Shown one piece after another: positions 1-19,848 of a DNA stretch of 20,000 nucleotides. The stretch's first letter is position 1; the number at the start of each line of letters is the position of its first letter. Location of the stretch: contig JYFJ02000400.1 in the NCBI GenBank assembly GCA_000934665.2, forward strand, positions 118,008-138,007, read 5' to 3'. A program made the position numbers and the translations under genes. This DNA is from Catajapyx aquilonaris. Its lineage: Eukaryota. The notes under the pieces are model-generated. The model ran no database searches, was not told where the DNA came from, and was given only the letters and a program-made list of their open reading frames with translations.

Positions 1-292
1 GGCAAAGAGATGCTTCACATGTACGCTTCGTTGAGGGGGATAGCCGGTGAGGATAAGCGAGTCCAGGAGGTGAGGAGGTGGGTGAGGGACCTGGGCTTGC
101 AAGAGCACAAGTCCAAGCCTTGCGGGACCTACTCCGGTGGGAACCAGAGGAAGCTGAGCACCGCCATTGCCCTCATTGGTGACCCCAAAGTGGTCTTCCT
201 GGACGAGCCCACCAGCGGAGTTGACCCCGCAGCCAGGAGGAACCTCTGGAAGGTCCTGGCTCAGATCAAGTCCACCGGACAGGTGGTCATAC
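1..292 (+). CDS. ABCA3: ABCA-subfamily ABC transporter (ABCA3-like), NBD2 exon, 5' part; the gene begins upstream of the window
   Basis: Frame 1 reads GKEMLHMYASLRG...YSGGNQRKLSTAIALIGDPKVVFLDEPTSGVDPAARRNLW, i.e. the ABCA NBD2 signature, Walker B and D-loop. The exon is cut after GTC ATA C by the insertion at 293. The subfamily is clear; exact orthology is not. Confidence 0.93.
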
Positions 293-770
293 TGTAACGG
301 TATACCCGTTACCCCACTTGTCCTCCCTTCTTACAATGCACCCTGCCTAAAACAGCCCATCTTACATACCACCCTGGAATATCCATCCTATCCCCTATTT
401 ATTGCCCTCCACCTTTCAGTCCAATTCCTGCCCCTACCTCCCATAAAAACCCTCCTTCAGTGAATGACACCCTGTTTGTCCAACTACCCAACGAGACCAT
501 CCTCTCTTGACCTCGCCACCCTCCTTCTTCTTGACCACCCTCTTGCTTTCCCCTGCCTTTTTGAAGCAGTCTGGATAGCAACCTCCTCCAGATGACACCC
601 ATATTCCTCCTCCTGCACCTACAACATCCCCCGTACATCCTCCCTCGATCTACATTGTAATTGTTTATCTTGCCTCAATACATCAGTTATTCCATTACTA
701 TTGACTCCCCTTATTCATTCCTCACACCCCCGTGACACTTCCCTCCTGACTTGACGTAATAAGTGTTACA
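293..770. mobile_element. 478-bp insertion, probable solo LTR (Gypsy-like), inside the ABCA exon
   Basis: Starts TGTAAC (293), ends GTTACA (770), flanked by the 4-bp direct repeat ATAC (289-292, 771-774). Removing it plus one TSD copy restores VVILTSHS. No coding capacity. An AATAAA lies on the minus strand at 398-403. Confidence 0.8.
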
Positions 771-774
771 ATAC

Positions 775-787
775 TCACCTCGCACAG
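775..787 (+). CDS. ABCA3: ABCA NBD2 exon, 3' remainder after the insertion (L-T-S-H, the H-loop)
   Basis: C|TC ACC TCG CAC AG|gtactg completes ILTSH(S). The donor GT at 788 joins in phase 2 to the acceptor before 876 (AG+C = Ser). Confidence 0.85.
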
Positions 788-875
788 GTACTGTGAGATC
801 ACTTATACGAGGAGAGGAGACATCCTGCTGTACTATTACATGTACCAAACTCATCCCATACCACGCGTGTTCTAG

Positions 876-1104
876 CATGGACGAATGCGAAGCTCTGTGT
901 TCTCGACTGGCCATTATGGTCAACGGCCAGTTCCAGTGCTTGGGAGGACCTCAGCACATTAAGTCCAAGTTTGGAAGAGGCTTCAGCGTGGTGCTGAAAC
1001 TGAGGCAAGGCAGTGACGTTGCCAATCAGGAAGAAGAAGTGTCGGCTCTGAAAAGTCGAGTCGAGTCTACGCTTGCGCCTTGTGTCCTGATGGACGAGCA
1101 TCAG
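876..1104 (+). CDS. ABCA3: ABCA exon (end of NBD2, start of regulatory domain)
   Basis: Acceptor tctag| at 874-875. Reads (S)[42 protein letters not shown]...LMDEHQ. Donor gtaaca at 1105. Confidence 0.93.
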
Positions 1105-1911
1105 GTAACATAAGCACGATGATAATAATATCACTGTGTAGGGATTTCTGGTAAACAGAGAGTGCTAAATTAGGAAATACTCGTTAAGAGCAGAGTTTGC
1201 AAAATCATCGAGTTTGATTTGTTTACTCTTGTTCAAGTCTGCCTCAAAGTCATTGAGATATGTACCGGTATATCGATTAACCCCATGCTTCAAGTCCATA
1301 TACCTGAAGTCGAGGTTGCCATCTCGGTCGTTGCCATGACAGTTCTGGGAAAGACAGCGTAGATCACACCACGGTCCAAATGGTGTTTGTTTGGGTGCTT
1401 GTTGCTTGTACTTGGCAGAATTGAGGGCTTTTGGTCGTTAATTTGGTAATTATTTAAGGAAACTAAGTTCTAAATCGAAATCATATAGTGCGGTTACCCG
1501 CCTGTACCTTGACCTTGGCGGATAGAGTGAACCCGGAAAACCGGAACTGGCAGGCGACCGGAAGTTGATAATGAAACCTATACAGTATTTTGACACGCTG
1601 TAGCCGAAAAGCGGCTTGTTGAATAATTGCTGAATATAATCGCCCAAGGAACTTGCTGTTCCAGCAAAGCCCCATTGCCAAAGCCTCATTTTAAACTTTT
1701 TGCCACATTTCCCACAATTATTTCCCGGAACTGTCATGGCCGGAGGACTTTCATTCGATTCAAGATGTCCGCCGGTTGAGCATTTGTCTCAATGTTTTTG
1801 GTCTGTTTGCTTGTTTCATATACTGTATATACAGTACAATCTGATCTGATCTTGCTGATAACATTGCCTTGTTTTCGGTTGCATTGTATGCATTATTTTC
1901 TTTCTTTCTAG

Positions 1912-2070
1912 GGTCTACTGCAATATCATGTCACTAATACAACGTTGTCTTGGACTTTCCTCTTCCGAACCATGGAAAACTTGAAAAATGAGGTCGATCT
2001 GGTGGAAGACTACGCTATCAGCGAGACTACTTTGGAGCAAGTATTTCTCTCCTTCTCCAAACAGTTGTAG
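1912..2070 (+). CDS. ABCA3: ABCA terminal coding exon
   Basis: Polypyrimidine tract plus ctag| at 1910-1911, phase 0. Reads GLLQYHVTNTTLSWTFLFRTMENLKNEVDLVEDYAISETTLEQVFLSFSKQL*, containing the ABCA C-terminal DY.IS.TTLEQVF motif. Stop TAG at 2068-2070. Confidence 0.93.
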   Translation, partial: GLLQYHVTNTTLSWTFLFRTMENLKNEVDLVEDYAISETTLEQVFLSFSKQL

Positions 2071-2407: not shown

Positions 2408-2836
<429 letters not shown>

Positions 2837-5366: not shown

Positions 5367-6076
5367 ACTAACAAGGGAACGGTCAGGGTCGAGAACCTCC
5401 GATTTGGTTGAAACTGGCTTGAGGGGTCATTTATGCGCGATAGACACAGTGGTGAAAGTGTTATCTCGCAACGTCCAGCCGTTTCCGAGATATGAGCGAC
5501 AGAAACATCCGAATTTTGGCCGCGCGCATTTGCCGGGAGCCTCTCTGCCAGCTCCAAATCCCTTCTACCTTGATTCCCCCCGCCCCCTTTACCCACTCTT
5601 CGATCCCACACCACCATCCCCCACTCCCCCACCAACATTTTCGTTTTCCATAGTTTCTTTGCTCCGGTATTTATTATGAGTTTTCCCATTACCCATTACC
5701 CAATTTTAGGTATAGAAGCTCTTTCTTCGCAGTTGACAGAAGCGAAAGAAAGCAGCTTGATGGTCTCATAAAATACCGGAGCAAAGAAACTATGGAAAAC
5801 GAAAATGTTGGTGGGGGAGTGGGGGTTGGTGGTGTGGGATCGAAAAGTGGGTAAAGGGAGCGGGGGGAATCAAGGTAGAAGGGATTTGGAGCTGGCAGAG
5901 CGGCTCCCGGCAAATGCGCGCGGCCAAAATTTGGATGTTTCTGTCGCTCATATCTGGGAAACGGCTGGACGTTGCGAGCTAACACTTTCACCACTGTGTC
6001 TATCGCACATGAATGACCCCTCAAGCCAGTTTCAACCAAATCGGAGATTCTCGACCCTGACCGTTCCCTTGTCAGT
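5367..6076. mobile_element. Foldback/MITE-like element with ~310-bp inverted arms
   Basis: 5367-5680 is the reverse complement of 5765-6076, with about ten substitutions and a 2-nt indel; 84-bp spacer. The mirror-image ORFs in the track (5287+/5689-, 5210-/5805+) reflect this symmetry. Confidence 0.85.
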
Positions 6077-9539: not shown

Positions 9540-11054
9540 ATGCCAAGAAGGAAACAGCCTCAAAGCCTGAGGCTCATGAGCCTGAGCTGCCTGACCAGCG
9601 CTGTGCTACAAGCCTGCAAGAGGAGCAATGGCCACAATTAGGATGGGATTAGTCAATTTGTCCATGGCATACCCAGGGTGTTTGCAAGCGAATTCGTATT
9701 GAAGACACTCAAGTTGTACTCAGAGGTAGAAGACAACAACTACAGCATTAGGGAAGCATTGCATCCTAAATGCACCAAGATAACAGCAGAGGATGGAAAG
9801 GGACTTGTGACACTTCCATCACATTGTTACAGCCAGTTGTTCACCAATCTTCATGTTATGAATGAGCTGCAAGTTTTTAACACATACTACGAAGGGACGG
9901 ACAGAACCACTAACAATGTGTTAAGATCTCTTCCATATGCAAACCTGCCCAATCTCCGTGAAGTTTGCATAATACTGCTTTCACGCACCCAGCACCTGGA
10001 GCAGTTGGCTGAGCATTGCCCACTCCTGGAGGATGTGACGATTGACGATGCCCTCCTGACACATGATCTTCGAATTCTCTCAACCTGCAGCCACCTTAAA
10101 AAAATTGATGTTGTTTTCCTTCAGCCTGATGTTGCCATCCACCTGCTTGAGAACCTGCCCAGCCTGGAATGTTTGAGCATTGACCACGTGACCGAAGTGT
10201 TGCCACTCTGCACAAGGATATATCCCTTGAAAAGATTTGCTTCATACATGATACCGATGGACTCCACTCACTTACCAAGGCTCTTGTCACACTTTCCTCA
10301 TCTTGTAGAGCTGAATCTGAGCATGGCCAGTGGCACAGATCCAAGCCCAATTAACAATCTCCTAGGTCTTAAACGCTTACAAATAAGAGGAGGTACAGCT
10401 TCCAGTCTTGTCTGCCTGATAGAATCGTGCATGGGTCGTCTGTCAGAGTTGCATTTGATCAATGTCACCAACCTTACTATTTTGTTCTCACTACAGTTGA
10501 ACATTCATGGCCCATCAAAGCTCAAATCCCTGGAAATTTCAGGATGCACTGGAATTAACCTGGCCACCATTGGTGAATTATTTCCATACATAGAGTCTCT
10601 TGAGTTATATGGCAATGGATTTATTCATCTTGCTCCTTGCCAAATGATGGTGAGATCTGCTTTTCAATCACTTGAACGATTGAAGATAACTGAGAGGGTG
10701 CCAATGGATCAAGCCAAATATCTGTTGTCAGCATCCAGCCACACATTAAAGATTCTTAATATTCATAACTTCTCCAAAATTTCGATTGCATGGGATCTGC
10801 TGTCTGGAGTTAGACTGAATAAGGAGTTACGTGAAATCTTCATAACGGACAGGGAGATGACAAAAGATATAATTCCAAAGATTTTGGCTGTATGCGGAGA
10901 TAACCTGGCAAGGGCAATGGCTCATGGTAATAATTTGGAATTGTCAGAAGATGAAGTTTGTGCATTGGAAAGTCAGTTGCAACCATATGACATGGTTTTT
11001 GAAATCTGGAGGCGGTATGGATTGTGGTATATGCATAAGGATAACCATGACTAA
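9540..11054 (+). pseudogene. Leucine-rich-repeat protein with N-terminal BC-box/Cul2-box (PRAME/ZYG11-like CRL2 receptor architecture), single coding exon, 504 codons with one internal TAG
   Basis: GCCATG at 9540 reads MPRRKQPQSLRLMSLSCL...GHN*DGISQFVHGIPRVFASEFV, in frame with the 458-aa track ORF (GTG start at 9678). TAG is at 9639-9641. Repeated RNI-like LRR units: LPNLREVCI, CPLLEDVTI, CSHLKKIDV, LPSLECLSI, FPHLVELNL, LLGLKRLQI, KLKSLEI, FQSLERLKI. Confidence 0.75.
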
Positions 11055-11577: not shown

Positions 11578-13989
11578 AATTATGTTACCTTGACATTTGT
11601 GTTCTTTAATTGCAGTGCTCAGGTTAAAATTCCAAATTCAGTTTCCGCAGGAAAGTGTGCCAATTGCAATTTTGTATTTAATATAATTTACTACATTTGT
11701 AATTGTGTTTGTTCCAAGAGTAAACAGAGATCTGGAATATGTGTAATCTCATTCTAAAGTTTAAATGACATAGCTTGGATTTACAGATGCAATTGTTGCT
11801 CCTATTTGTAGTACGTCTCTGGCTGGCAGCTAGAGTAGGACAAGAGTAGGAGTAAAAAGTATACGGGAATTCAGGTGTGAGAAATGTTGATAAAGAATAT
11901 TTGAAAACGGTTATTAGAACATAAGCATTTCATTTTTATAAACCCACTTAAAATATTCGTGTAATGACACTACGTTGAGATGTATGCTATTTTGTGGTGT
12001 TCTAAAATGAATTTTCCAAACATACTGACACATAGTAGTGCAGTACCTGGGTGGTGTAAATGGAGCCAATATTAACAGATCAATAAAAAAAACAGTGGTT
12101 ATTGTGGCCTTCGGCCCCCAATCTTTCCGCTGTTCTAATCCAGGTCAAGCAATTTATAATTCTTTTCAGACAGGCCCCAAAAATAAGGACAAGTTAATGT
12201 CCTTCTTGGGTTGGCGCAGTGGTCAAAAGTAGGACTGTCCTTCCTAATAAAGGAGGACTTCTGGCCATCTTACCAGGCAGGCACATGAGACGAACGATGA
12301 GGAAGCTAAATTAGCCACAATTTATTCACCATGAGCCGTCAACACATCTGCTCAAGTCATCAAACATTTAAGAACTTGTTGTCCTCAATGATTTTTATTT
12401 GCATTCACAAAAATGGTTGGTCTGAACACCATCACCTGAAGTACGCATAATTAAGTCACAGCAAAATAATACAAACAGGATGTTGCCACCTGAAATTACA
12501 ACTCGAACTCTTTCCATTATTATAACACTATTCCAGGGGGTTCCCAGGGGGTGACGGACACGCCAGCGATTGCACAGGCGAGTGTTAATCCCATGTTTGT
12601 TATCTTAAGACAGGCAAAAAGGTTCATCATATTTATTTATCTTATACACAAAAATGAGGGATTGGTATAGCACAAAAAATTGATTACTCCCTCACAACTA
12701 ACATTATACTATCTAGGTTCTACACTACTAAAACAAGGGAAGGTCAGGCTAACCTGCTAGAGGCGAAGCAAGACGGTGGAGCAGGCCAGCAATCAAGAGC
12801 CCACTTCCCCTTGCACTTCCCATTGGTGACTTGACAGGAAATACGAAAGGAATAAACTTTTCTCCCACCCTGTCACCATTGTACTGAGAAGTCTCTCTTT
12901 TCATAGATCCTGTCATTAATGTCACCTTCCGAATCATCTGATCCAAAATTCTGCTGGGCACATGCTGGGGACTGGCGCAGAAGACTGAGACATACAGAGG
13001 TGCTGACACTGACAACACTGATGGAGATGTAGAAGACAGTCCTTAAAGGAAGCTGCAGAGGATGACACTGATGTGATTGCTAAGCTCACAAGTGGAGAAG
13101 GAGCAGCTGATTCAGAGCCCAGGGGTAGCTAGCTGATCATGAGGAATCAGATTATCAAGCAGATGCTGGTAACATTGATGTGATTTCAGACTCCAAAGTG
13201 GGGTAGCAGCAGCGCATACTAATTAATGCATTATAATTATTTGTACTGTAGGTTGAATAGGACTAGGGGGCTTCAGGGCCGCACGCACAGTCTGCTATAT
13301 ATTTTGACCAACCTGTGAATTATTGGGCACCTTGATTCAAGCCACACAAAAATTACATCTCCATGGGAAAAATTTGCAATAACTAAAACCACCCCAATAC
13401 TTGGAACACACTGTATATGTAATGATTGTCCAAAATCTTATGTCTTATAGTTCAGGTTGACATCACCATTGTTGTCATTACTAAGTCAATCATAATAACA
13501 ATGGAAAGAAAGGTCATCATCATCATCATCATCATCGCAACATTTCTGTAACAAAGTAGAATGCGTTCTATTATTAAATTATATCAAAATTCGGTATATA
13601 TTAATGTACTAGCAGGATACCCGGCGTTGCTCGGGTTATGAAATACTTTTCCATAGGAGTGACTCATTGATTTGGTAGTAACCTTTGCAATAATTATGGC
13701 TATACAAATACAATGTTGGCATACCAGTGACATGGAGCTTATTGCATGTGCATGAAGTCCAAACAACACACTGCGGATGTCAGATTGTAAGAGAGTACAC
13801 AATTATACACCTACAAAATCCAGCAAAAGTATGTAATGGAAAATTGAAGGTTGTGGAGTAAATGTAGAAGTAAATGTAGAATGTAGAAGCTCCAGCATGG
13901 CAGAGCTTACAATCTGACATCCATTGTGTGTTTTTTCGACTTGATTCACATGCAATATTTGGTATGGCCATCCAATTACGTTCATAATT

Positions 13990-14834
13990 GCATAGATGAA
14001 GCGTGTTGTCTCGAAGCTTCAACACAATATTCCTCTTATTACCATGCTCCTGACCACTCATGCTCACAGCAATCTCATTGCAAGAAGGTTGATTGAATCG
14101 ACCACGATGCTCGCCTTGTGGTCGCTTGTCTGTATATCTATGACCAAGTCATATTCCAGAGGAGGAGGACTCTCAAGTGCAAGTTTGAAGCTCTTGACAT
14201 GAGTGGAATGGATCATCTCCTGAAGTTGCAGTATGATGTGGAGGCATGTGCCGTTTAAGTAGGTGCAATGGTATTCCGCCTGCTGTTGCATGTTCCCCAC
14301 GAAGTAAAGTTGCAGAAACCGCGGACTCTGATTTTCTGAAGGAAGGAGTGATCCCATGCGATGGTAAATGTGGCCTTGCACTTTGAATGTGGGCATGAAG
14401 TTCCCCTCTCTAACAACGTTGGCCCCAAAAGATGTCATCTGGAAGGTCAAATTGTAATTTCTGATGGTCTTCAGGAAATGTTTTGAATCAGGTGATGTGC
14501 CTATAAGAAGAGCATTTTAAGTAGCTGTGGAGGCTCAGCCAGTAGAGGAAGGCTAACCTTTCCAATGGAGCAACAGATCGGTTTTGTTTCACCCTTCCAC
14601 TTCTTTGCCTGACAGTGTTGGCATACCTCTGACATAGATCCAATTGCAACAACACCTCCAGAAGAATAGTTCATGTCTGCTGAGTAGTGGAAAGCGGCAT
14701 GCAGGAGGTGGGTTGATGAAAATGGAGCTAATCTCCGACTGATGGCCGCTGTTTCTCATAGAGTGGAGACATGCTTGGTGTTCTTCCTCAGTCTCTTGGT
14801 CCCTCACCCTTAGCCGAACTCTGCGTGTATCCAA
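13990..14834 (-). pseudogene. Frameshifted N-terminal fragment of Helitron RepHel protein
   Basis: Across frames: ETEEEHQACL; IGSMSEVCQHCQAKKWKGETKPICCSIGKVSLPLLAEPP (Zn finger); SKHFLKTIRNYNLTFQMTSFGA...FMPTFKVQGHIYHRMGSLLP...PRFLQLYF; DKRPQGEHRGRFNQPSCNEIAV...RNIVLKLRDN. Ends before the HUH Rep motifs and the PIF1 helicase. Confidence 0.9.
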
Positions 14835-16550: not shown

Positions 16551-16677
16551 TATAGATGGGTCGGTGAACGAACGCAAGCGGGTGGCCAATTTTATTACAG
16601 GAATTACATTACAAACTGCATTCCGACCTGTAATAAAATTGGCCATCTGCTTGCGTTCGTTCACCGACCCATCTATA
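16551..16677. mobile_element. 127-bp hairpin MITE-like element
   Basis: 51-bp arms (16551-16601 / 16627-16677) with 2 differences and a 25-nt loop; TA on both outer edges. Confidence 0.75.
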
Positions 16678-16814
16678 GAACAATGCTCTCAGGTCGACGA
16701 ATATTTCAATACTTTGTTATAGCCTTCATAAAAAGTATGAGGTTGTGTGTCCGAAACCAGGAGAGAGACTATTCCTTAAGAGAGCAATAATTTTTTGAAG
16801 GTGAACACAATTAA

Positions 16815-18001
16815 ATGAAAATCAAAATATTGTCAAAATATTGTAGCAAGTCATTATAGCCCATCATGCAGCGATGGCGCTCTTTCTTTACAATAAGTAC
16901 ATGTAAGAATCATGTGAGTATCGAGGTAGAGCATTGGTCTAGTGGCTAAGCCGCTCTCTTCGTAACATGAGGGTTTTAGGATCGGATCCCGAAGAAAGAC
17001 GCCGTTTCTTTTTATCGCTTATGGACCCTTTCTCGCTGTTACTTTATCTCACATTTCGCATTTATTTCTCCTTGAAGTGCATCTGTAAATAGACATTCTG
17101 GCGGGGGTGGAAAGGGGGGGGGGATATGTAAGAGGATAGATGTGAAAGAGACAGGAAGGTGGCCAAGCCTACACGAAAATATTTTCCTATCTAAAACCGC
17201 GTCGACGATCTGCGCATCTCCACCCACAGCAGACGCCGGTGGGGATTTATTATTTTATTAATCCATAGAGCAATGCCACGAAACAGTGACGCCGAATGTC
17301 CATCCTGATGATCCCAAGGAGGTGACACGATGACCACCCGCTTACGTCACACTCATACTGATACCAGCTCTGCATTTGGCTATAGGGTAGAGGGGCGAGA
17401 GGGGCATACGAGAGATATACCGTATATCTATGTACTGTGCTCTGTACAGTCTCATTTCGAAATATCCGACAGATGGAGTCCAAGGTAGGACCTGGCTCCA
17501 TACCAAAAACCTAATATTAGGGCCTTTTAGGTCAAAGGTCAGCCTGCAAAAAACTATGCAAAATGCCCTAAATATTGTGCTGCTTCATTTGCATGTGCCG
17601 GTGAGTGGATTGGACCTATAGTTTAAACACTGGGACTGAATATTAGGGGGGCTCATAGGTTTGAGAATGGAACTCCCGGGTATAAGACAAATGTAGTCAC
17701 AATGGGGTGCGTAGGATGGGGGCTGCCGGGCCGGGATGGACAACAACACAACAAGCGAAGCCATTAAATAAAATTTTCTGACTTTTTCCGTCGGAAAAAA
17801 GGGAGAGGAAGGGGGGGTGGAGAGGGAGAGGGAGGGGGAGGGGGGAGAAAACCTTTTTGCGTTTATTAAGCCACTAGACCAATGCTCTACCTCGATACTC
17901 ACATGATTCTTACATGTACTTATTGTAAAGAAAGAGCGCCATCGCTGCAAGATGGGCTATAATGACTTGCTACAATATTTTGACATTATTTTGATTTTCA
18001 T
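16815..18001. repeat. 133-bp inverted repeat pair (16815-16947 / 17869-18001)
   Basis: Arms are reverse complements with 2 mismatches; spacer about 920 bp. Confidence 0.9.
16923..17012 (+). mobile_element. Degenerate tRNA-derived head (SINE or pseudo-tRNA)
   Basis: A-box TGGTCTAGTGG, decayed B-box GGATCGGATCC, then a T-run. Confidence 0.4.
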
Positions 18002-19848
18002 ATAAATAGCGTTGTTCACTTGATTTCATAACCCGAGCAACGCCGGGTATCCTGCTATCTCTTGATAATTACGTTCTAATCAAAATTCTCTCTCATGGAT
18101 ATTAATCCAAACTGGTGATCAATACCTATCAACACAGTGACTTTATTTAGAAGTTACTGCATTATACACAAAAAAAAATCCCGCAATTTGCTAGTGCTAG
18201 TTGCAATTCACTATTTTTGAAGCCATTGTATGTGCGCGAATGTCACACAGCGTAATAAATATGCGATGTAAACTGTCCGAAAAGTTAATTCAAAAAAGCA
18301 ACAAGCTGTGCAAACACAACGAAATTTTGCTGCTGAATGGGGTAGAGTAGATTGGTAAATCGATTTATTGGATGAAATAATCGTTATATTAATGCTTGTT
18401 TACTCAAATATGGACTATGTCGGTGCCTATATTGATTCATACTTTGGCTCGCTTGCATACCAAGCCCGGTATATGCAACCTACTTGTATAGTAACAGGCC
18501 AGGTCATGCTGAGGTGTGCACCCAGGCATTTGACCATAAAGATAGAGCATATTTTGGGGTGGGTGGGGGGGTTGATCCAACCCAACCCCCCCTATCCAGC
18601 CCTATGAGCAGCCAGGTACTCCCTGGTGCAGCTCCATCTTTCTCATCTTGATCTCCAAAGAAGGCGGACGTGCGTGCTTCTCGCCAGGTCTACAGACAAC
18701 TGCCGTGGACCGAAGATTGATGTCTCATCCTCCGTCAAGTGGGGTCAAGTTGGACATCGGGTTAAGCCACGCATACCTAGCACTATAGACAGCCCTGGAA
18801 TGCATGAATGGTGAGTACAGCAGCGATTAAAAATCCGTCGTTTACAGGTTTACATCACGCAGCAATTAAGGGTCGGTTGTACCAGGTCAGATAATATCGG
18901 ATTATTGCCTACTCAAATCTGTATTTGGTACGAAAAACATTGCCCTAAATGTCCTAAACTGTCAAATAATTTGTTCAGGCAAGAATCTGAGTTAACAGAC
19001 ATGGTGCAGCAAGAACAGTGGAAGCAAAAAAAAAAAAAGCAATGAGCAGTAAAACCAATAATTGCTTGCGACTAGCTCCATTAGAAATACTGGACTTGTG
19101 CAATAAAATGGGGCTCGACGAATGACACTTGACCTTGGCGCATTGCAATGTAGGTATGCCATTGAATGGCATAACTGCTGGTCTGTTAAATGGCCCAAAA
19201 TGGAATTAAAGTGGTTCATGTAAAGATGTTGAAAAAAGTGCAGTCGTTGACTATGCCGAAAGAGATGACTTCCTAGCACCCATCAGTCAAATTGCCTCAA
19301 TCCTGCCTAGTGTCCACAATGTAATGGGAATTAAAAGAAAAACCACTAGAAAATTGCGATTAAATTGCCATATTTGCTTTGACCTTATGCTACCCCTAAG
19401 GCACTAACAGTAAGTAGGCCATTTTACGCCAAAGATGATCACCGACATGTAATGGCGGCGGTTGGTAAATTTGCATTGTTACCTGGCGCTGGCGTTAGCT
19501 ACAATCATGTTGGTACAGATTTTGATAAGCTGAATTGTTGGCCATTTAGAAAATAAGTCCTATATTGCTACATTTGACAAATTTAATTCCCTTCAAAATG
19601 GCTCTTTGCAAATAGCAATATTTCATAATTATATTCAATATCACTATAATATTTTATCCTGATACTCTGTTTGGGGACATTTAAAGTTGAATCTATTGTT
19701 GGCTGATGGGCTGAGTTGAACATAGGACAGTTCTTTTGCAGACATTCGTAATAATTATGAAATTATGATATAATTATTATATCAAAAGTTGTACTAGAGT
19801 AATTGTGGTTTGACATGTTTTACAAAATGCTTTATTTTATGCATGCAG

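What the first reader, a model, noticed from the sequence alone, without database searches (positions are those of the whole stretch)
289..787. Solo-LTR-like insertion splits the ABCA exon just before the catalytic H-loop histidine
Seen: a 478-bp TGTAAC...GTTACA element with an exact ATAC TSD sits inside codon Leu of VVIL|TSHS and creates an immediate TAA (295-297). The stranded 13-nt exon remainder (775-787) keeps its donor, and the other exons are intact. Known: TG...CA ends with a 4-bp TSD are typical of Gypsy LTRs, and the H-loop His is required for ABC ATP hydrolysis. Inference: a recent insertion followed by LTR-LTR recombination, giving a null or hypomorphic allele unless splicing rescues it.
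Basis: partly seen in the sequence, partly recalled or inferred. Interest (0 to 1): 0.8.

Follow-up and report, generated by a model that had tools for sequence, protein, structure and literature searches.

The report
Retrotransposon LTR inserted in ABCA exon
A 478-base long terminal repeat from a retrotransposon sits inside a coding exon of an ABCA-type transporter gene and stops its reading frame just before a catalytic histidine; this is a clean but ordinary gene-breaking insertion.

Summary
ATAC (289-292) is followed by TGTAAC...GTTACA (293-770), then ATAC again (771-774). There is an in-frame TAA at 295-297, and a 13-nt exon remainder (775-787) keeps its GT donor. Solved ABCA structures and 7 relatives leave only T-S-H-S/T-S-H between the two coding blocks, so this is an insertion into a continuous exon.

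Public contigs of the same organism support an LTR. A contig of exactly 478 nt (293-770) has about 6-9 times the depth of the exact-match flank contig. Other copies run on into different flanks. One flank starts with 14 of the 18 letters of the tRNA-Lys1,2 primer-binding site. Purine-rich tracts precede the left end.

The uninterrupted exon exists in DNA contigs of close relatives of this gene copy, and in two intron-less contigs of a second sample. This excludes an old intron. The LTR lies in the gene's sense orientation.

Four points remain open:
- whether the copy is truly solo or an assembly collapse;
- whether an empty allele of this very locus coexists;
- which LTR superfamily it belongs to;
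- what happens to the transcript.

This is an ordinary, young transposon disruption of one member of a multi-copy ABCA3-like family.

The parts
1..292 (+). Upstream part of the interrupted ABCA exon (nucleotide-binding domain 2: signature YSGGNQRKLS, Walker B VVFLDEPTSGVD, ends ...GQVVI + CT of Leu)
   Evidence: Translation. It aligns to ABCA4 2029-2125, ABCA1 and ABCA3 1494-1590. Pfam ABC_tran E 8.1e-09.
289..292 (+). Target-site duplication, left copy (ATAC)
293..770 (+). 478-nt LTR in sense orientation. Ends are TGTAAC / GTTACA. It is pyrimidine-rich on this strand (C182 T143 A105 G48).
   Evidence: Contigs of exactly 478 nt cover 293-770 at depth 405 and 359, against 45-59 for the exact flank contig. 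Other copies run into other flanks.
295..297 (+). In-frame TAA created by the element's first bases
771..774 (+). Target-site duplication, right copy (ATAC)
775..787 (+). Stranded 13-nt exon remainder (completes Leu, then Thr-Ser-His, then AG of Ser), followed by its GT donor at 788
   Evidence: The same letters continue the uninterrupted exon in other contigs (loose ends behind 293).
788..875 (+). 88-nt intron (GTACTG...TCTAG)
   Evidence: Two contigs of run X5 join the exon across it (tables 5 and 5c). tblastn blocks.
876..1104 (+). Next ABCA exon (S)[17 protein letters not shown]...DEHQ, open
1105..1911 (+). Last intron (GTAACA...TTTCTAG); holds another repeat near 1400-1500
   Evidence: depth and loose ends
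1912..2070 (+). Last ABCA exon (GLLQYHV...FSKQL) with stop TAG at 2068-2070
   Evidence: Pfam R1_ABCA1 E 4.1e-06.

Best explanation
A young LTR retrotransposon integrated into the exon that encodes the end of nucleotide-binding domain 2 of an ABCA3-like transporter gene. Integration duplicated the 4-nt target ATAC. The element lies in the same orientation as the gene.

In the assembly only one 478-nt LTR remains. The usual way to reach that state is recombination between the two LTRs of a full element (inferred, not shown).

The element's first bases put a TAA straight after ...VVIL. A read-through transcript would therefore encode a protein without the H-loop histidine and the last ~130 residues. 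It would carry a premature stop ahead of two exon junctions, or end inside the LTR (inferred).

The gene copy is most likely a null. It is one of several closely related ABCA copies, so the organism probably tolerates the loss (inferred).
For: Shown here:
1. Anatomy: TG..CA ends, a 6-nt inverted repeat and an exact 4-nt duplication. This combination is unique among 19510 places tested in the window.
2. Continuous exon: solved ABCA1/3/4/7 chains and 7 of 7 relatives laid on the window are continuous across the site, with only T-S-H(-S) between the blocks. 116 of 120 relatives carry T-S-H-x-M-D/E-E in one piece.
3. Repeat with these exact ends: in runs X2 and X3 one contig of exactly 478 nt covers 293-770 at depth 404.8 and 359.2. 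In X1 two contigs (293-597 and 568-770) have depths 363.8 and 488. The contig that matches the right flank from 771 on with 0-1 other letters has depth 58.7, 45.5 and 51.5, a rough ratio of 6-9 (table 8).
4. Other copies elsewhere: 2, 3 and 3 contigs (X1, X2, X3) leave the window at 771 with differing letters. The consensus in X2 and X3 reads AA + TGGCGCCCAACGTG... (table 7). That 14-mer is the first 14 letters of the 18-nt tRNA-Lys1,2 primer-binding site printed in PMC1084362 (passage) and of the foamy-virus site in PMC3386198 (passage).
5. Left-end context: contigs that enter at 293 end in purine-rich tracts...GAAATAAAAGAAGG (X3, 2 contigs) and ...TTAGGGGGAGT (X5, 1 contig).
6. Orientation: a primer site after the right end and purine tracts before the left end give the + orientation.
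7. Empty site: 3 contigs in X2 and 2 in X3 run past 293 with CACCTCGCACAGGTAC. Two X5 contigs join 293 to 874 through CACCTCGCAC or CACATCGCAC, so the 88-nt intron is also gone. A contig joining 288 to 771 (skips 482) is in X1 and X3 at depth 14.1 and 16.5 (tables 5, 5c, 7).
8. Youth: the window's copy differs from the multi-copy contig at 3 of 478 places (565, 567, 577), and the duplication is exact (table 3).
9. Ends: they fit the LTR short-inverted-repeat consensus TGTTRNR..YNYAACA at 6 of 7 positions each (PMC3601003, passages).
Against: - No listed contig bridges either junction (292/293 or 770/771). Contigs break at the repeat's ends, so the filled site itself rests on the assembly.
- X1-X3 are one sample, which may be the assembly's own source, so they are not independent of it.
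- Only 30-letter loose-end consensus strings of the other copies were seen. No gag-pol was seen and no full element.
- The sense strand of the LTR has no TATA[AT]A and no AATAAA. It has only CATAAA at 442, AATACA at 677 and AATAAG at 758.
- Contig depth is a rough proxy for copy number, and the tool warns against reading summed depth that way.
- No RNA of this gene copy was available, so the null status is inference.
Confidence: 0.8

Rival explanations
1. The locus really holds a full-length LTR retrotransposon (LTR - internal part - LTR). The short-read assembler collapsed the two identical LTRs into one, so the 'solo' LTR is an assembly product. The gene is broken either way.
For: The LTR is a near-identical multi-copy repeat at which every contig breaks, which is the situation in which assemblers collapse. 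Contigs with a primer-binding-site-like continuation exist in the same sample (table 7), and nothing assigns them to another locus.
Against: Nothing in the outputs speaks directly against it. The window copy has 3 private letters (565, 567, 577) against the multi-copy contig. This shows only that the assembler used locus-specific reads for part of it.
Confidence: 0.2
2. The LTR behaves as a new intron (introner-like). The GTAAC at the element's second base serves as donor. It pairs either with the AG at 762-763, which adds 12 nt (V-T-I-L), or with the natural acceptor at 874-875, which removes 12 nt (T-S-H-S). The message stays in frame and the copy is hypomorphic rather than null.
For: Both joins keep the frame. 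The cryptic donor ACT|GTAACG shares GTAAC with the gene's real donor CAG|GTAACA at 1105. Solo LTRs that work as introns are described for a Copia family in Panicum virgatum (PMC12130899, passages).
Against: The donor lacks the exonic AG. The acceptor ...GACGTAATAAG|T has a purine-rich last stretch and A at -3, unlike the two real acceptors ...GTTCTAG and ...TTTCTAG. The second join deletes the H-loop histidine. No contig shows either join.
Confidence: 0.08
3. A non-autonomous cut-and-paste DNA transposon with integrase-like ends (Ginger-type or another family with 4-nt duplications), not an LTR.
For: TGTNR ends and 4-nt duplications are shared by Ginger1 elements and Gypsy LTRs (PMC2836005, passages).
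Against: Ginger1 has 40-270-nt terminal inverted repeats and CCGG/CCGT/ACGG targets. Ginger2 has 6-nt RTATAY targets. Here the inverted ends are 6 nt and the duplication is ATAC. Other copies are followed by a tRNA-Lys primer-site-like 14-mer and preceded by purine tracts, which a DNA transposon does not need.
Confidence: 0.03
4. An ordinary old spliceosomal intron at this position, or a pure mis-join of the assembly with no insertion in any animal.
For: Only that no contig bridging the junctions was listed.
Against: No register of exact removal has GT..AG or AT..AC ends. Close relatives of the gene in the same sample are uninterrupted in DNA. A mis-join would not produce a complete repeat unit with TG..CA ends flanked by an exact 4-nt duplication. 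The exact-match right-flank contig starts precisely at 771 in all three runs of the sample (table 8).
Confidence: 0.02

Closest known systems
Solo LTRs of Ty3/Gypsy-type (Metaviridae) LTR retrotransposons
   Same: TG..CA ends with short inverted repeats close to TGTTRNR..YNYAACA, and a 4-nt target duplication. It is multi-copy and near-identical. Other copies sit next to a tRNA-Lys-type primer site and purine tracts. Size is a few hundred bases.
   Different: No internal gag-pol was seen, so the superfamily is not established. That 4-nt duplications and Lys primers are common in Gypsy-type elements is recalled, not tested. There is no canonical TATA box or AATAAA on the sense strand.
Ginger1 / Ginger2 DNA transposons (PMC2836005)
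   Same: TGTNR termini; Ginger1 makes 4-nt duplications.
   Different: Ginger1 needs 40-270-nt inverted ends and CCGG-type targets. Ginger2 needs 6-nt RTATAY targets. Here there are 6-nt inverted ends, an ATAC duplication and primer-site context in other copies.
Introners derived from LTR elements, including solo LTRs (PMC12130899)
   Same: A solo LTR inside coding sequence, with a GT near its start and an AG near its end. Both conceivable joins are in frame.
   Different: Introners are defined by many copies that are spliced as introns. Here there is one copy in a gene, weak sites, no splicing evidence, and neither join restores the original message.
Transposon or retrotransposon disruptions of insect genes such as ABC transporters, known from Bt-resistance work
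   Same: A mobile element knocks out a membrane-protein gene in an invertebrate. The listing holds papers on ABCA2 and Cry2Ab and on retrotransposon-mediated disruption (titles and abstract starts only).
   Different: The organism here is unnamed. The gene is ABCA3-like, one of several copies, and no phenotype is known. The link is an analogy only.

Membership tests
LTR of an LTR retrotransposon | 5'-TG...CA-3' ends forming short inverted repeats | tested here: met
   TGTAAC...GTTACA, 6 nt inverted. 6 of 7 positions at each end fit TGTTRNR/YNYAACA.
LTR of an LTR retrotransposon | Flanked by a 4-6-nt target-site duplication | tested here: met
   ATAC at 289-292 and 771-774. The uninterrupted sequence with one ATAC exists in other contigs.
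LTR of an LTR retrotransposon | Repeated in the genome with the same ends and different flanks | tested here: met
   A 478-nt contig equals 293-770 at about 6-9 times the flank contig's depth. 2-3 contigs per run leave at 771 with unlike letters, and others enter at 293.
LTR of an LTR retrotransposon | In full copies: primer-binding site complementary to a tRNA 3' end just after the 5' LTR | tested here: met
   Loose-end consensus behind 771 in X2 and X3 is AA + 14 letters, equal to the start of the tRNA-Lys1,2 site. It is a consensus of 3 contigs with agreement 0.68, so not every copy has it.
LTR of an LTR retrotransposon | In full copies: polypurine tract just before the 3' LTR | tested here: met
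   ...GAAATAAAAGAAGG (X3, 2 contigs) and ...TTAGGGGGAGT (X5, 1 contig) directly before 293. These are short strings only.
LTR of an LTR retrotransposon | Promoter (TATA) and polyadenylation signal (AATAAA) inside the LTR | tested here: inconclusive
   No TATA[AT]A or AATAAA on the sense strand. Only variants are present: CATAAA 442, AATACA 677, AATAAG 758.
LTR of an LTR retrotransposon | Internal gag-pol genes in full copies | not testable with these tools
Ty3/Gypsy superfamily | Reverse transcriptase before integrase in pol; placement of the RT in a tree | not testable with these tools
   No internal sequence is available.
Ginger1 DNA transposon | Terminal inverted repeats of about 40-270 nt | tested here: not met
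   Inverted ends stop after 6 nt. Criterion from PMC2836005.
Ginger1 DNA transposon | Target duplication CCGG or CCGT/ACGG | tested here: not met
   The duplication is ATAC.
Spliceosomal intron (old, shared) | GT..AG or AT..AC ends that remove it exactly | tested here: not met
   The five registers of a 482-nt removal start and end TG..AC, CT..TA, AC..AT, TA..AA, AT..CA (read; AT..CA printed).
Spliceosomal intron (old, shared) | Present at the same place in related genes | tested here: not met
   DNA contigs of close relatives in the same sample are uninterrupted. The relatives' proteins are continuous, which says nothing about their introns.
Introner | Spliced from the message; many copies serving as introns | not tested
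   No RNA of this copy and no genome. Only in-frame arithmetic and site comparison were done.
ABCA subfamily transporter, nucleotide-binding domain 2 | Signature, Walker B and H-loop motifs, and the C-terminal regulatory domain, in ABCA order | tested here: met
   Best solved matches are ABCA4, ABCA1, ABCA3 and ABCA7 second domains, E 6e-46 to 1e-40. The next exon matches ABCA3 1595-1666. R1_ABCA1 is in the last exon. The H-loop is split by the insertion.

The most novel reading that the evidence does not exclude
The sense-oriented LTR is caught at the moment of becoming an intron in an animal gene. Its own GTAAC at base 2 is used as donor. The message then stays in frame, either with four extra residues that re-create the hydrophobic strand before T-S-H-S, or without the H-loop. 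This would be a segregating, splice-rescued exonic LTR insertion.
Probability: 0.08. Interest if true: 0.6.

Novelty: new member of a known kind. Interest (0 to 1): 0.3.

Why it matters
For the species, this marks one ABCA3-like gene copy as probably dead. It also shows that an LTR retrotransposon family has been active recently: the copies are near-identical, the target duplication is exact, and the LTR is also present in a second sample's intron-less contigs.

For annotation, it warns that a gene model here will be truncated or will invent an intron.

More generally it is a textbook-clean example of an exonic LTR insertion, with the empty site documented. It is useful as a marker locus if the insertion is polymorphic, but it is not a new kind of biology.

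Tried and rejected
- Whole-genome search for copies: no genome is held.
- Other copies in the window: none. The primer-site 14-mer is absent from the window even with 3 mismatches.
- Earlier notes of this scan: none by sequence or by genome.
- Rfam found 0 matches and there are no tRNA genes in the window.
- Protein database, longer and near lengths: the best relatives are 50-71% identical. None is from the same species, so no annotated model or allele could be compared.
- No RNA holder was listed by the look-up of sequencing runs. Run X5 has kind '?'. I infer it is RNA-derived only because two of its contigs lack the 88-nt intron.
- No X5 contig matches this gene copy's exons closely. The listed ones have 7-14 other letters over 147-293. 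This says nothing about expression of this copy.
- The X5 LTR contig ends at 714, but contig ends cannot show an RNA end, so I draw nothing from it.
- Whether the 288-to-771 contig (depth 14-17) is the empty allele of this locus or a paralogue could not be decided. Its 25-letter side is what a bubble against the filled form would give. Close paralogues share the junction letters as well.
- The sigma-70 promoter and terminator scan found nothing and does not apply to a eukaryote.
- Pfam on 7 other open frames of the window gave only a sub-threshold LRR match.
- My guess from reading that 14064-14516 (-) is Helitron-like got no Pfam support, so I dropped it.

Full report
**What is in the sequence**

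The window opens inside a coding exon. Read from base 1, the frame gives GKEML...YSGGNQRKLS...VVFLDEPTSGVD...GQVVIL and then stops at TAA 295-297.

The stop belongs to a 478-nt stretch, 293-770. It starts TGTAAC, ends GTTACA, and is flanked on both sides by ATAC (289-292 and 771-774). Behind it lie 13 nt (775-787) and a GT.

The direct repeat is 4 nt, plus one further matching base that I read as chance. The inverted ends stop at 6 nt. At this spacing the combination occurs once among 19510 places in the window.

**It interrupts a continuous exon**

- The block 1-294 aligns to the second nucleotide-binding domain of solved ABCA4 (2029-2125, E 6e-46), ABCA1, ABCA3 (1494-1590) and ABCA7.
- The block 877-1104 aligns to ABCA3 1595-1666 and ABCA4 from 2130.
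- Four residues are missing between the blocks. The 13-nt remainder, plus the first base of the next exon, encodes exactly Leu(completed)-Thr-Ser-His-Ser.
- Seven of seven relatives laid on the window by tblastn show the same picture, with three residues (T-S-H) between their blocks. They also locate an open last exon at 1912-2061. The stop is at 2068-2070.
- Of 120 relatives from the protein search, 116 carry T-S-H-x-M-D/E-E in one piece.
- Pfam sees ABC_tran in the first block and the ABCA1-like C-terminal regulatory domain in the last exon.

**It is an LTR**

No genome is held for the window, so I used public runs. Five runs hold the stretch. X1-X4 are one sample of one study (kind 'DNA?'). 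X5 is a second sample of a second study (kind '?'). I laid X1, X2, X3 and X5 (4 of the 5) on window 1-1500 at 80% likeness.

- In X2 and X3 a contig of exactly 478 nt covers 293-770, with 3 other letters, at depth 404.8 and 359.2.
- In X1 two contigs (293-597 and 568-770) have depths 363.8 and 488.
- The contig that matches the right flank from 771 on, with 0-1 other letters, has depth 58.7, 45.5 and 51.5.
- The intron stretch 1151-1350 lies at 34-51.

I use single contigs' own depth. The tool warns that summed depth is no copy number, so the ratio is rough.

Independently of depth, other copies run into other flanks:
- 2, 3 and 3 contigs (X1, X2, X3) leave at 771 with unlike letters.
- In X2 and X3 their consensus reads AA followed by a 14-mer.
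- That 14-mer is the start of the 18-nt primer-binding site for tRNA-Lys1,2, as printed in PMC1084362 (passage), and of the foamy-virus site quoted in PMC3386198 (passage).
- Contigs entering at 293 end in purine-rich tracts (X3, 2 contigs; X5, 1 contig).

A primer site after the right end and purine tracts before the left end are the hallmarks of 5' and 3' LTRs of full elements. They also give the orientation: the LTR lies in the same sense as the gene.

The ends fit the general LTR consensus TGTTRNR..YNYAACA at 6 of 7 positions each (PMC3601003, passages).

Ginger DNA transposons share TGTNR ends. However, they need 40-270-nt inverted ends with CCGG-type targets, or 6-nt RTATAY targets (PMC2836005, passages). 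Neither is met.

**It is an insertion, not an intron**

None of the five registers that remove exactly 482 nt has GT..AG or AT..AC ends (read; one search prints AT..CA).

The uninterrupted sequence exists:
- 3 contigs in X2 and 2 in X3 run past 293 with CACCTCGCACAGGTAC. This is the exon remainder plus its donor, in what are DNA-like runs.
- The listed example is a 163-nt contig at depth 80-84, with 14 other letters over 147-293. It is a close paralogue or a divergent haplotype.
- In X5, two contigs join 293 to 874 through CACCTCGCAC or CACATCGCAC. They have the uninterrupted exon and also lack the 88-nt intron, which is why I take X5 to be RNA-derived (inference).
- A contig joining 288 to 771 is present in X1 and X3 (2 of the 3 runs of that sample) at depth 14.1 and 16.5.
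- Another variant (288 to 775 with four other letters between) is in X2 and X3 (tables 5, 5c, 7, 8).

The 25-letter side of the 288-771 contig is what an empty allele forming a bubble against the filled one would give. Close paralogues share the junction letters too. Whether the insertion is heterozygous in that sample therefore stays open.

**Age and copy context**

The window's LTR differs from the multi-copy contig at 3 of 478 places (565, 567, 577), and the duplication is exact (table 3). The insertion is young.

The LTR is also in X5 (a 506-nt contig, 4 other letters over 293-714), so the family exists in a second sample.

A shorter form of the LTR (skip 431 to 499) is seen in X2 and X3.

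The ABCA exons are covered by many variant contigs (up to 7 contigs with another letter at one place). This gene is therefore one of several close copies (table 3).

**What it does to the gene (inferred)**

Translation stops after ...VVIL. This removes the H-loop histidine and about 130 C-terminal residues.

The stop lies ahead of two exon junctions, and a sense-oriented LTR may also end transcripts. On the sense strand I found no canonical TATA or AATAAA, only variants.

Two cryptic splice outcomes are conceivable, and both are in frame:
- donor at 294 with the AG at 762-763, which adds 12 nt (four residues);
- donor at 294 with the natural acceptor at 874-875, which removes 12 nt and loses T-S-H-S.

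The donor ACT|GTAACG shares GTAAC with the gene's real donor at 1105 but lacks the exonic AG. The inner acceptor is poor. No contig shows either join.

Solo LTRs that serve as introns have been described in a plant (PMC12130899, passages), so this bolder reading has precedent. It has no support here.

**What stays open**

- No listed contig bridges 292/293 or 770/771, so the filled site rests on the assembly. The DNA runs may be its own source.
- A collapsed full-length element cannot be excluded.
- The superfamily is untested because no internal sequence was seen. That 4-nt duplications and Lys primers are typical of Gypsy-type elements is recalled.
- The protein searches found no close relative (best 50-71% identity), so no annotated model could be compared.

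**Verdict**

It is a young LTR insertion that most likely kills one member of a multi-copy ABCA3-like family. This is ordinary biology, cleanly documented.

Noticed in passing
window 1400-1500 (inside the last ABCA intron): Another repeat. Summed depth jumps to 470-690 at 1401-1450, against 34-51 just before. 8-13 contigs carry other letters at 1436-1449, and loose ends occur at 1450 and 1485 in all three runs of the sample.
   Followed up: no
window 1-292 and 876-1104: The ABCA exons are covered by many variant contigs at 80-95% likeness (up to 7 contigs with another letter at one place, for example 219 and 915). This suggests a multi-copy ABCA3-like gene family or a very polymorphic sample (table 3).
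   Followed up: partly
window 431-499: Some copies of the LTR lack 67 nt (joint 431 to 499, depth 12.8-19.7, in X2 and X3), giving a shorter LTR variant (table 5).
   Followed up: no
window 5367-6076: Large inverted repeat: two 306-nt arms, 96% complementary, 98 nt apart. Both arms carry long open frames that mirror each other, with no Pfam match.
   Followed up: partly
window 16811-18005: A 1195-nt unit bounded by 137-nt inverted repeats, 98% complementary. It looks like a non-autonomous DNA transposon. No clear target duplication shows in the flanks printed.
   Followed up: partly
window 16551-16677: Near-perfect palindrome: 51-nt arms, 96% complementary, 25 nt apart, ends TATAG...CTATA. It is MITE-like.
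   Followed up: no
window 13610-13644 and 18023-18057: Two perfect 35-nt copies in inverted orientation, 4.4 kb apart. They are probably ends of one repeat family.
   Followed up: no
window 9642-11054 (+): A 470-codon uninterrupted open frame with only a sub-threshold leucine-rich-repeat match (PF25019, E 0.00099, 19.5 bits against a cutoff of 27).
   Followed up: partly
window 2408-2507: (ATT)n switching to (AAT)n, a palindromic trinucleotide microsatellite of about 100 nt.
   Followed up: no
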